This document shows positions 21,001 to 24,000 of a stretch of 64,000 bases of DNA, piece after piece (the stretch's first letter is position 1; each line of letters opens with the position of its first letter). A program made the position numbers. This DNA comes from Candidatus Woesearchaeota archaeon (GTDB taxonomy: Archaea; Nanobdellota; Nanobdellia; Woesearchaeales; JAFGPW01). The DNA is taken from contig JAFGPW010000004.1 of assembly GCA_016935985.1 (NCBI GenBank), forward strand, positions 62,001 through 126,000. Reading direction: 5' to 3'.

Positions 21001-24000
21001 TCGACGACCGGCTCGCCGGTCTGCTCCAGCAGTACCAGGCATTCTCGTTCGCAGAAAAGGGTGAGATCCTCGCGCTCGAGGATGAGGCGAAGGCGGTGCG
21101 GCAGGGGTACCATGCTATCGGCAGGCGGCTCGCGGAGCGGACCGGCTCGTTCTGGCAGCGCCTGCTCGGACGGCAGCCGCGATACGATACCCGCGGCATC
21201 GCGCGCTGCGACGCGCTCAGGGAGAAACTCGGTCCCGCCTACGAGCGGTTCGTGAGGACGAAGGAGCTGCAGGAGAAGGAGCGGGAGAGGGAGCGGCGGA
21301 TCGGCGAGGCGAGGACCGAGATGGTCAAGGAGGGCGAAAGCCGGTTCTCCCTGCCATACTATCTCGAGGATCTTGCCGTGCCTGACCGCGACGATTATTG
21401 CATGCTCAGGGACGTCCTGCTCGGCAGGCATGCGGACAAGCTCTGGCCGAACCGGTTCAGGGCGGCGGGGAGGATCATCGAGGCCATGGGACCGCCGAGG
21501 GACGATGCCGAGGCAGCCTACCTGAAGGCGATGCAGGACGGGATCGTGCGCGCTCTCGGGGAGGGGCCGCTCGGGGACATCCTCGGCGCGAGGAGGGAGG
21601 ACCTGCTCGTCGCCTACAGCGCGGTGCGGGGACTGGAGCTGCAGCTCGATCGGCACCCGCAGGCACACCACAACATGTAACCACTGAATAAAGACGAAAT
21701 ATTTATAAAGGGGTTGCTGTACCGCCGTCCCATGACGCCCGCCCGGACCGATGGATGGGACAGGTTCGCCGAGCGCTACGCGCGCATGAAGAAGGAGTAT
21801 GGCTGGTGCGCCCCCCAGAATCTCGCCGAGGCATCGGGCCCCTTCCTCGCCCGATATGCACGGCAGAGCGGAGGGAGCGACAGGCCTCTTCTCGTCGATC
21901 TCGGCACCGGCGGCGGCGAGGCGCTGCTCGAGCTCAGCAATCATCTGCGGCTCGATGACTGGCAGGTCATCGGGGTCGACATCGGTGCGCGGTTCCTCAG
22001 CCAGGCGAAGGAGAACGTTCGGCCGCATATCCCCGGCTTCGGAGCCGTCCGGACAGACCTGTCAGGGGGGTTCCCTTTCGCCGACGGGAGCGTCGATGCC
22101 ATCGTCTCATCTGGCCTGACAGGCGATTATTTGGAAGACATCCCGTATGTGCTCGCTGAGACCTCCCGCGTGCTTCGGCCCGGAGGGATCGCGGCGATCA
22201 ACGGCCATTTCCTCCCGGACAGGATCATGGGGCCCCTCAACACGCTCCCGTTCTCCTACCGATCGCTCACCCGGTTCACCGCGTATGCGATCCCGGACAG
22301 GAGGGGTCCCTATGGCGAGACACTCAGCATCTCCAGCAGGATAGCGATCCTCTATACCCAGATGGTGCTCATGAAGGGTCATCCGCAGAAAGATTTATGA
22401 ATGATCGGCCATTTTTCTCGGAATCCCGGGCCGGAGTCGCATAACCTGGTAGTGCGGTGGCCTCGAGAGCCACTTTCCTTCGGGATATCTGGGTTCAAAT
22501 CCCAGCTCCGGCGCTATCCTTTTCAAAAGGATAGGACCCAAAGTGGTGTGCGGGGCGTTCGTTGTGCGAAGCCCTGCTCCCCGAGACCCCTTCTCGCGGC
22601 CGGCTAAGCGGAAGCGCACGCCGGCCCTCGGTCTCAACGGACGAAACCGTTGAATCCCAGCTCCGGCGCTATCCTCCTTCTTCATCGGATCCGGGCTCTC
22701 CTGCGGGAAGAACCAGAATCAGCGGGGGTCGCACCAGCAGCTGCAGTGGGGGGCGTTCACGAAGTGGTTCGCGTAGACCATGCCGTGCTTCGAGCAGAAG
22801 GCCTTGCACATGTCCTCGCAGCAGGCGCCGTACTGGTCAGGGTCGTCGCAGCGGGTCTGCAGGTTGATGATCTCGACGATAGAGGTTGCCGACTCGTCGG
22901 CGGTGACAGCACCCGTCCAGCGCGTATAGCCGTAGTAGCCGAAGCCCACGAGAGCGACGAGAATGACTGCGAGCATCATTGCGGCGAGCGCGTTCATGCC
23001 GGGAACGAAGGGTGCTCCGTATAAAAAGTTTTTCATTTTCGAGGGGCGATACAGAAACCCTTATTAATGCCAGGAGGCTCTCATGCGGCATGGCGAAGCG
23101 TGCTGATCAGGCGAAGGAGCGGATCCTCGTATTCTGCGCCCACAACGACGACCAGGTCTTCGGCGCAGGCGGCACCCTCGCGAAGTACGCGGACGAGGGA
23201 AAAGACATCTACACGATCATCTTCTCCTACGGCGAGAGCTCCCACCCCTGGCTCAGGCCCGATGTCGCGGCGAAGATGCGCGTCGCAGAGGCGGTCGCCT
23301 GCGACCGGATCCTCGGCGGCAGGGGGGTCATCTGCTTCGGGCTGAAGGAGGGGAACTTCGAGAAGGAGATCACCGAGAAGGGCATCAAGGGAAAGGTAAA
23401 AAAGCTCATCAACAGCCAGAAGCCATCGAAGATCTTCACCCATTCCATCGACGACCCGCACCCTGACCATCGTGCGGTCCACAACGCGATCATGGAGGTC
23501 ACGACGACGATACGGCACAAGGCGGACGTCTTCACCTTCGACGTGTGGAACCCGATCAACATCAGGAAGCGGGACTATCCGAAGATGGTGGTGGATGTCA
23601 CCGGCACGTTCAGGCGCAAGATCCAGGCGATCTACGCGCACGAGAGCCAGAAGCTCGCGATGATATCGCTGCTCTGGAACGTCTACCTCAAGGCGTTCAT
23701 CAACGGGCTCAACCATGACGTCAGGTTCGCCGAGGTTTTCTACAAGGTGCGCTAGGGGCAGACGATGCAACCGATACACGACCACGGGACCGGCAGGCCG
23801 CGGCTGCTCATCGCGACCGACAACTTCGTGCCGCGCTGGGACGGCATCGCCCGGTTCCTGCTCGAGATTATCCCCCGGCTGAGATCGCGCTACGACATCA
23901 CCGTCGTCGCGCCGAGGATTGAGGACAAGACGGATGAGCATCTCGCCGAGCTCGAGGGCGTCACCGTGCACCGCATCGACCGCTTCGGATTCAGGGTGGG

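What a model noticed while it worked through the whole genome (the two positions that open the first line are those of the whole stretch)
22430..22675. tRNA-tail repeat: ten tRNA genes carry one mobile hairpin element that duplicates each host tRNA's own 3' end
Ten different tRNA genes are followed, in the same orientation, by a 60-200-bp hairpin-rich element with a fixed end CGGTGTCRAYGGACGAAACCRT and then a copy of that tRNA's own T-loop-to-acceptor end. It is likely a non-coding mobile element that recognises tRNA structure and duplicates about 20 bp of its target, and whose end also serves as a cassette boundary before toxin-antitoxin and defence genes in relatives. This would be a new tRNA-targeted mobile element of Woesearchaeales.
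Evidence so far: 10 copies, all behind tRNAs (Arg, Ile, Leu x2, Ser x2, iMet, Phe, Val, Pro), duplicates match own tRNA at 12-19 of 20, periods 80-223 bp; nhmmer finds no copy elsewhere. End motif in 13 of 151 order genomes, 40 GTDB loci, most titled Woesearchaeota/Nanoarchaeia or 'Methanosarcinales' bins, 51 metagenome loci. Direct repeat >=16/18 in 4 of 41 and 19 of 54 hits; RBS+ATG directly after in 7 of 41 and 12 of 54; others abut tRNA 5' ends or antisense tRNA ends. No Rfam match.
(Added by a program. Inside this text positions count along the whole contig: contig position 62,001 is position 1 of the stretch shown here. "Call 12" and the like, gene names such as g00115 and contig names such as C1 are that model's own, and its searches are not shown. 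The text may have been shortened before it was handed on; [...] marks where a part breaks off. The agent that wrote the report below was given it as the finding of a first reader that could run no searches.)

Follow-up and report, generated by a model that had tools for sequence, protein, structure and literature searches.

The report
Tail-guided hairpin element seeding tRNA introns
A gene-less hairpin element of Woesearchaeales archaea sits at tRNA gene ends, where it is flanked by a short duplication of the target, and at the start of tRNA introns that close relatives lack; it likely moves as single-stranded DNA whose short tail pairs with the target, which would be a traceable route for archaeal tRNA intron gain.

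Summary
Confirmed and wider than reported. Ten of 41 tRNA genes found in this genome are followed by a hairpin element ending in a fixed 24-base end, then a copy of the tRNA's 3' end. An eleventh, antisense copy heads the tRNA-Gly(CCC) intron. In relatives the end lies on either strand; 76 of 157 sites have a tRNA T-arm within 260 bases, against 20 of 827 control windows. It flanks 14-80-base duplications, sits flush with tRNA base 1 or a ribosome-binding site, or starts a bulge-helix-bulge intron that congeners lack; one 82-base intron recurs in two tRNA types at 77/82. Mismatches between target and copy crowd the first bases behind the end and are 17 to 0 of the G-T wobble type, pointing to a retained single-stranded tail that primes on the target (inferred). 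No mobilising enzyme was found. 'Cassette boundary' is not supported. The scan noted what looks like this family before in other genomes; four paper searches found no description.

The parts
22430..22513 (+). tRNA-Ser(CGA) gene, intact host
   Evidence: ARAGORN; Rfam RF00005
22498..22520 (+). host copy of the duplicated segment (tRNA position 58 to 7 bases of trailer)
22514..22534 (+). hairpin A, shared by the Arg, Ser, iMet, Ile and Val copies; its first 7 bases overlap the duplicated segment (microhomology at the variable 5' join)
22521..22652 (+). inserted element, 132 bases, five hairpins, DNA fold z -5.1 (opposite strand -4.1)
22598..22626 (+). hairpin C, present in all ten copies, just before the fixed end
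22629..22652 (+). fixed end: 6-base leader plus blunt 6-pair hairpin whose last base is the precise junction
22653..22675 (+). second copy of the tRNA 3' end, 23/23
33567..33641 (-). tRNA-iMet gene, host of the second window copy
33447..33564 (-). second element copy, 118 bases, end motif 33447-33470
33424..33446 (-). duplicate of the tRNA-iMet 3' end, 22/23, with A57 read as G

Best explanation
This is one copy of a gene-less, dispersed hairpin element of Woesearchaeales with a precise 3' end, found on either strand mostly at tRNA ends and loops, and it likely moves as single-stranded DNA whose terminal hairpin plus a 4-7-base tail pairs with an exposed target strand and primes host DNA synthesis. 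Shown: the precise end, the variable 5' body, both orientations, duplications of 0 to 80 bases that include genomic trailers, introns that begin at the end motif and are absent from congeners, and one intron shared by different tRNAs. Inferred: the tail comes from the previous site and is kept in the new copy, so it steers the element to like sites (T-loop to T-loop, as in all ten tail copies here; D-arm to D-arm; ribosome-binding site to ribosome-binding site). Inferred: how far the upstream strand had re-copied the target before joining the element's 5' end sets the duplication length; selection keeps only outcomes that leave a whole tRNA or a spliceable bulge-helix-bulge intron. Unknown: what makes the single strand; I think a trans-acting or host nuclease, or a passing reverse transcriptase acting on excised introns, is about equally likely.
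For: Conservation stops sharply at base 24 of the end; its last base was in no search pattern yet pairs with the stem's first base in 169 of 173 hits, with compensatory changes. T-arm within 260 bases: 76 of 157 sites vs 20 of 827 control windows. 42 duplications of 14-80 bases, median 25. Mismatches host vs copy: 7-20 of 42 at each of the first six positions, peak 20 at the fourth, then 0-4. In the 28 of 39 sites with at most two such mismatches, 17 are C>T or A>G (G-T wobble if the element strand anneals to the template) and 0 are T>C or G>A; distal positions give 9 vs 10. Sites with similar bodies share tails: 18.6% of 188 pairs vs 1.6% of 12,640 unlike pairs, 2.1% for a 6-mer further out, 0 of 200 permutations. 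GNA-triloop mini-hairpins lie on the element strand: 111 vs 26 (control 8 vs 6); their DNA-specific stability is recalled knowledge. Empty vs filled: tRNA-Val(GAC) has an end-headed D-loop intron in G233 and no D-loop intron in congeners G389, G287, G360, G060; tRNA-Gly(TCC) has an end-headed 59/60 intron in G389 and G233 and none in G360, G167; the G389 gene folds into a canonical bulge-helix-bulge. Same intron in tRNA-Glu and tRNA-Pro of G233, 77/82; Gly and Pro 128 identities over 141-159 bases. A splicing endonuclease gene is in 5 of 5 high-copy genomes.
Against: No mobilising enzyme: RT 0 and Y1 transposase 0 in this genome (92% complete); Cas1, IS110 and TnpB not found over cut-off in 5 high-copy genomes. 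C>T and A>G on one strand is also the signature of deamination of exposed single-stranded DNA, so the tail need not be inherited. The 17 changes and the 188 pairs are not independent (orthologous sites, copies nested in larger repeats of G345 and G130). 11 of 39 sites have three or more proximal mismatches, mostly transversions. About half of the sites are not at tRNAs. Intron absence in congeners could be loss, and some ends may have entered introns that already existed; how the 3' half of the first bulge-helix-bulge arose is not explained. No empty allele or intermediate was seen in reads. Splicing is predicted, not shown.
Confidence: 0.55

Rival explanations
1. A REP/REPIN-like repeat moved by an HUH (Y1) tyrosine transposase: cleavage at the target, attack by the end's 3'-OH, and polymerase extension give one-ended insertions and tandem units.
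For: Tag-plus-hairpin anatomy; tandem arrays (L153 three units, L100, L094, L134, L143) fit the rolling addition model for BIMEs (PMC3333891, passages read); inverted second ends in L191, L192, L154, L196; Y1 genes in 9 of 21 positive vs 7 of 40 negative genomes (Fisher p 0.06).
Against: No end motif near any of the 15 Y1 loci fetched, whereas REPs flank their transposase (PMC3116915, passages); no Y1 in this genome or in 12 of 21 positives; only the IS200-type subclass was reported in archaea (PMC6006769, passages); it does not by itself explain the retained wobble-type tail.
Confidence: 0.18
2. A SINE-like retro-element: element RNA is reverse-transcribed from a nicked target or by template jumping from tRNA, with A57>G and A58>G arising from misreading of modified bases.
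For: Precise 3' end, variable 5' end and variable duplication are the geometry of target-primed reverse transcription (recalled); joins flush with tRNA base 1 at more than ten sites; RT in 8 of 21 positives vs 8 of 40 negatives (p 0.14); introns start within -2 to +2 of the end, so an excised intron is a template with the right 5' end.
Against: Duplicates carry genomic trailers (7 bases here, 30-60 elsewhere), not CCA; both orientations occur; the same change type appears at protein genes; in target priming the annealed bases would keep the host sequence; no RT in this genome, G130, G345, G233, G389; no end motif at 9 RT loci.
Confidence: 0.15
3. Relics of integrase-bearing islands (attL/attR) that lost their interiors.
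For: tRNA 3'-end duplications starting in the T-loop are typical of such islands (recalled; PMC3293823 passages describe a tRNA fragment and intron gain beside a recombinase element); tyrosine recombinases are in 5 of 5 high-copy genomes.
Against: One end sits at ten different tRNAs, each with its own sequence repeated; no hit had a matching repeat 400-10,000 bases upstream, so no long version was found; 0 exact hits of the main motif in viral contigs and 2 chance-looking variant hits; no match in plasmids or phages; the recombinase loci lack the end.
Confidence: 0.05
4. A host-selected RNA-processing or terminator signal behind tRNAs, with duplications from slippage.
For: All ten tail copies lie in the sense direction behind tRNAs here; E. 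coli tRNA-linked repeats are transcribed and processed (PMC8144298, passages).
Against: Patchy presence (44 of 401 genomes of the order), both orientations, sites inside a 23S rRNA intron and inside larger repeats, decay of half the duplicates.
Confidence: 0.07

Closest known systems
tRNA intron transposition in Thermoproteales (Fujishima et al. 2010, as reviewed in PMC4090602; passages read, original not seen)
   Same: [quoted passage not shown]
   Different: There the mechanism and donor are unknown; here the intron head is a dispersed element that also occurs outside introns, with duplications and a junction signature.
REP/BIME/REPIN with RAYT (PMC3333891, PMC3116915, PMC6006769; passages read)
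   Same: Short non-coding hairpins with a conserved tag at the stem foot, single-strand folding, tandem amplification, nesting.
   Different: No flanked transposase, no GTAG tag, mostly single ends not doublets, target duplications of 14-80 bases, strong tRNA preference.
E. coli tRNA-linked repeats (PMC8144298; passages read)
   Same: A repeat ending in 18-19 bases identical to the 3' end of the upstream tRNA.
   Different: Those are described only downstream in operons; no shared mobile end, antisense copies or introns were mentioned in the passages read.
Casposons (PMC5137440; passages read)
   Same: Insertion at a tRNA 3' end with a direct duplication, T-loop needed.
   Different: Casposons have terminal inverted repeats, Cas1, a fixed 15-base duplication and one target; none of these holds here.
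Caldiarchaeum 1.8-kb insertion at tRNA-Thr (PMC3293823; passages read)
   Same: A mobile element linked to a tRNA fragment and intron gain.
   Different: It encodes a recombinase and targets tRNA-Thr; this element is 40-200 bases, gene-less and hits many tRNAs.

Membership tests
REP/REPIN-RAYT | hairpin with conserved tag at its 5' foot | tested here: met
   (tag differs from GTAG)
REP/REPIN-RAYT | cognate Y1 transposase gene flanked by the repeat | tested here: not met
REP/REPIN-RAYT | mostly inverted doublets | tested here: not met
   an inverted second end was seen by eye at 4 sites only; none in this genome
REP/REPIN-RAYT | single-strand cleavage and transfer by the enzyme | not testable with these tools
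   needs biochemistry
Casposon | terminal inverted repeats | tested here: not met
Casposon | Cas1 integrase | tested here: not met
   0 of 5 genomes
Casposon | fixed-length duplication | tested here: not met
   14-80 bases or none
Integrase-type island (attL/attR) | integrase and cargo between the repeats | tested here: not met
Integron attC | invariant AAC/GTT triad (recalled) and gene-site arrays | tested here: not met
   the stem varies AAC, AAT, GAT, GAC with its partner; the genome's own cassette array lacks the end
SINE-like target-primed retro-element | precise 3' end, variable 5' end, variable duplication | tested here: met
SINE-like target-primed retro-element | partner reverse transcriptase | tested here: inconclusive
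   0 here, 8 of 21 vs 8 of 40
Archaeal BHB tRNA intron (intronic copies only) | 4-pair helix between two 3-base bulges at the exon junctions | tested here: met
   fold of L273; read by eye for D-loop and 59/60 cases; relaxed in some Gly(CCC) cases
Archaeal BHB tRNA intron (intronic copies only) | removal by the splicing endonuclease | not testable with these tools
   gene present in 5 of 5; no RNA data
E. coli-type tRNA-linked repeat | 3' 18-19 bases identical to the upstream tRNA end | tested here: inconclusive
   met by 5 of 10 copies here, not by most sites elsewhere

The most novel reading that the evidence does not exclude
A self-guiding mini-element with no enzyme of its own: each copy carries a few bases of its last landing site as a primer, so it re-targets itself to like sites by base pairing, and the host tRNA splicing system both rescues its insertions and releases the introns that seed the next round. 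It would be the first defined vehicle and mechanism for archaeal tRNA intron gain and transposition.
Probability: 0.3. Interest if true: 0.9.

Novelty: new variant of a known kind. Interest (0 to 1): 0.74.

Why it matters
[quoted passage not shown] This family gives a defined end, empty and filled genes in one genus, and a junction signature that can be tested with short oligonucleotides.

Tried and rejected
Enzyme hunts: RT, Y1 (20, 31, 53), GIY-YIG (29: 1 of 5, a 533-aa frame far from a copy), Cas1 (44), TnpB (77), IS110 (80), tyrosine recombinase (43, 46: present in all five, no end nearby); the IS91 search (79) rang in no control genome and says nothing. Clustering 595 ORFs within 3 kb of hits gave housekeeping genes and no recurring mobility gene (names there by recall). 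No long element. Rfam: only tRNA at the locus and tRNA/rRNA in six related loci. Hammerhead and attC readings of the end fail on pairing and on triad variation (by eye; motifs recalled). G-T wobble inside the end hairpin does not pick a strand (about even). ARAGORN at low threshold gave noise. No RNA holder listed; two RNA runs did not cover the locus. Dropped rows: five bacterial-titled hits (L038, L041, L053, L065, L072); five doubtful duplications. At 3 mismatches the reversed control pattern hit 16 of 401 genomes once each, so some single hits there may be chance; with the 24-base pattern the control was 0. Paper searches without a description of the element; one search found nothing. Supplements were not read; tRNA tables in genome papers could list these introns.

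Full report
Observation. The window holds tRNA-Ser(CGA) at 22430-22513, then a 132-base insert, then an exact 23-base repeat of tRNA position 58 through seven trailer bases. A contig of an independent assembly covers the element without a difference (the run may be the source of the genome). In the whole genome ten of 41 tRNA genes with a verified T-arm carry the element behind them. Five duplicates match their own tRNA at 13-14 of 14 bases from position 61, five are decayed to 8-11. The copies are modular: long ones have three or four hairpins before the end, short ones one, and two have a related 57-base insertion inside the end. An eleventh, diverged copy with that insertion lies antisense at the start of the 125-base intron of tRNA-Gly(CCC).

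Distribution. The motif with up to three mismatches is in 44 of 401 genomes of the order (reversed control: 16 genomes, one hit each). With the 24-base form it is in 19 of 301 genomes of the phylum sample, none of them among the 83 from other orders, control 0. Collection scans gave 45 genome loci, mostly titled Woesearchaeota, Nanoarchaeia or 'Methanosarcinales' bins, 53 metagenome loci and no exact viral hit.

The end. Over 173 non-identical hits the sequence is conserved to base 24 and near random beyond. Base 24 was never part of a pattern, yet it pairs with base 7 in 169 hits, including 19 with a changed pair. The element therefore ends at the foot of a blunt six-pair hairpin. GNA-triloop mini-hairpins in the 60 bases before the end lie on the same strand, 111 against 26, which suggests a folded single DNA strand (their DNA-specific stability is recalled).

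Where it lands. 76 of 157 de-duplicated sites have a T-arm within 260 bases, against 20 of 827 control windows. Reading the contexts by eye gives: sense copies behind tRNAs with a 3'-end duplicate; antisense copies before tRNAs with a 5'-end duplicate, the mirror case; copies flush with tRNA base 1; antisense copies just past the 3' end; copies before a ribosome-binding site, mostly of housekeeping genes; copies behind protein genes with 27-80-base duplicates of the gene end, among them the splicing endonuclease gene itself (L010); copies nested in larger repeats; one inside an intron of a 23S rRNA gene (L095; group I type read by eye); tandem arrays; and copies inside tRNAs. The 42 duplications span 14-80 bases and include genomic trailers, so the template was DNA or precursor, not mature tRNA. 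No long, gene-bearing version was found.

Introns. At the D-loop, at 37/38 and at 59/60 the reverse complement of the end begins within -2 to +2 bases of the predicted 5' splice site (read by eye). tRNA-Val(GAC) of G233 has such a D-loop intron while four congeners have none there; tRNA-Gly(TCC) has one at 59/60 in G389 and G233 but not in G360 or G167. G326 has other introns in both genes, two with diverged end-like heads. The G389 precursor folds into a canonical bulge-helix-bulge. Within G233 one 82-base intron is shared by tRNA-Glu and tRNA-Pro at 77/82. Loss in the congeners, or entry into older introns, is not excluded.

Mechanism. Differences between target and duplicate crowd the first six bases behind the end (7-20 of 42 per position, then 0-4), while the first two bases still match in 34 and 35 of 42. 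In the 28 of 39 sites with at most two such differences, 17 are C>T or A>G and none T>C or G>A; all proximal changes give 24 to 5 with 38 transversions; distal ones 9 to 10. C>T and A>G are what G-T wobble allows if the element's own strand anneals to the template and is kept. Similar bodies share tails at unrelated sites, and here five duplicates share a T-loop stub with G at the invariant A58. I infer a single-stranded DNA copy whose hairpin-plus-tail primes synthesis on an exposed strand; the length re-copied before the 5' join sets the duplication; selection keeps whole tRNAs and spliceable introns. Deamination of an exposed strand gives the same two changes, and the events are not independent, so tail inheritance is likely, not shown; both readings need a single-stranded element strand. 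The source of that strand is unknown: RT and Y1 genes are absent here and only weakly more common in positive genomes (8 of 21 vs 8 of 40; 9 of 21 vs 7 of 40), and none of 25 such loci has the end nearby.

Comparison. It works most like REP-type single-strand palindromes and shows the intron copying described for Thermoproteales, but it fails membership of REP/RAYT, casposons, integrase islands and attC sites on defining features. Papers were seen as passages (PMC4090602, PMC3293823, PMC3333891, PMC3116915, PMC6006769, PMC5137440, PMC8144298, PMC9668308, 10.64898/2026.10.13.758758) or as search listings only; no supplement was read. Searches found no description of the element. Earlier notes of this scan describe what looks like the same family in other genomes; they show no sequences, and a look-up by sequence found nothing, so identity is not proven. 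The intron link was in my notes before that look-up; the junction asymmetry, tail sharing and empty-versus-filled comparison were done afterwards on my own data.

Verdict. Real, mobile by all signs, restricted to one order in the genomes searched, undescribed in the library searched, and directly relevant to the origin of archaeal tRNA introns; enzyme unknown. Interest 0.74.

Noticed in passing
G000 C4:3910+, C4:1005-, C6:92434+, C8:69176+, C4:97427+, C5:7942+ (contig coordinates): A second set of tRNA 3'-end duplications with periods of 55-62 bases (11-13 of 14), starting at position 61 and lacking the end motif; two carry a small capped hairpin whose reverse complement is in the Glu and Gly introns.
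   Followed up: partly
G000 C2:104100-116500: An integron-like array: attC-like sites between short genes and a restriction-modification block, beside a 273-aa tyrosine recombinase.
   Followed up: partly
G000 C10:31490-31634 minus: A tRNA-Lys-like gene with an intron in the anticodon loop and a second insertion at 59/60 that ARAGORN mis-calls.
   Followed up: no
G000 C7:60994+ and L277, L278: tRNA 3'-end duplications with unrelated AT-rich inserts (270 bases here; about 60-100 in G060 and G167), so other families share the geometry.
   Followed up: no
L051, L106, L125, L126, L128: Arrays in which ATPase (AAA_14/DUF4143), Schlafen/AlbA_2 and other genes are separated by repeated copies of the 3' end of a large gene, with hairpin modules inserted in the repeats.
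   Followed up: partly
L146-L152 (G345), L135-L142 (G058), L057/L062/L073/L074/L080 (G130): Larger intergenic repeats, two with inverted outer ends, that carry the end motif inside.
   Followed up: no
G040: Twelve reverse-transcriptase matches, several in frames of 500-1270 aa, in one genome without the motif; could be contamination or an expansion.
   Followed up: no
window 45282-45354 minus: tRNA-Val(CAC) has neither intron nor element, an empty control in the window.
   Followed up: yes
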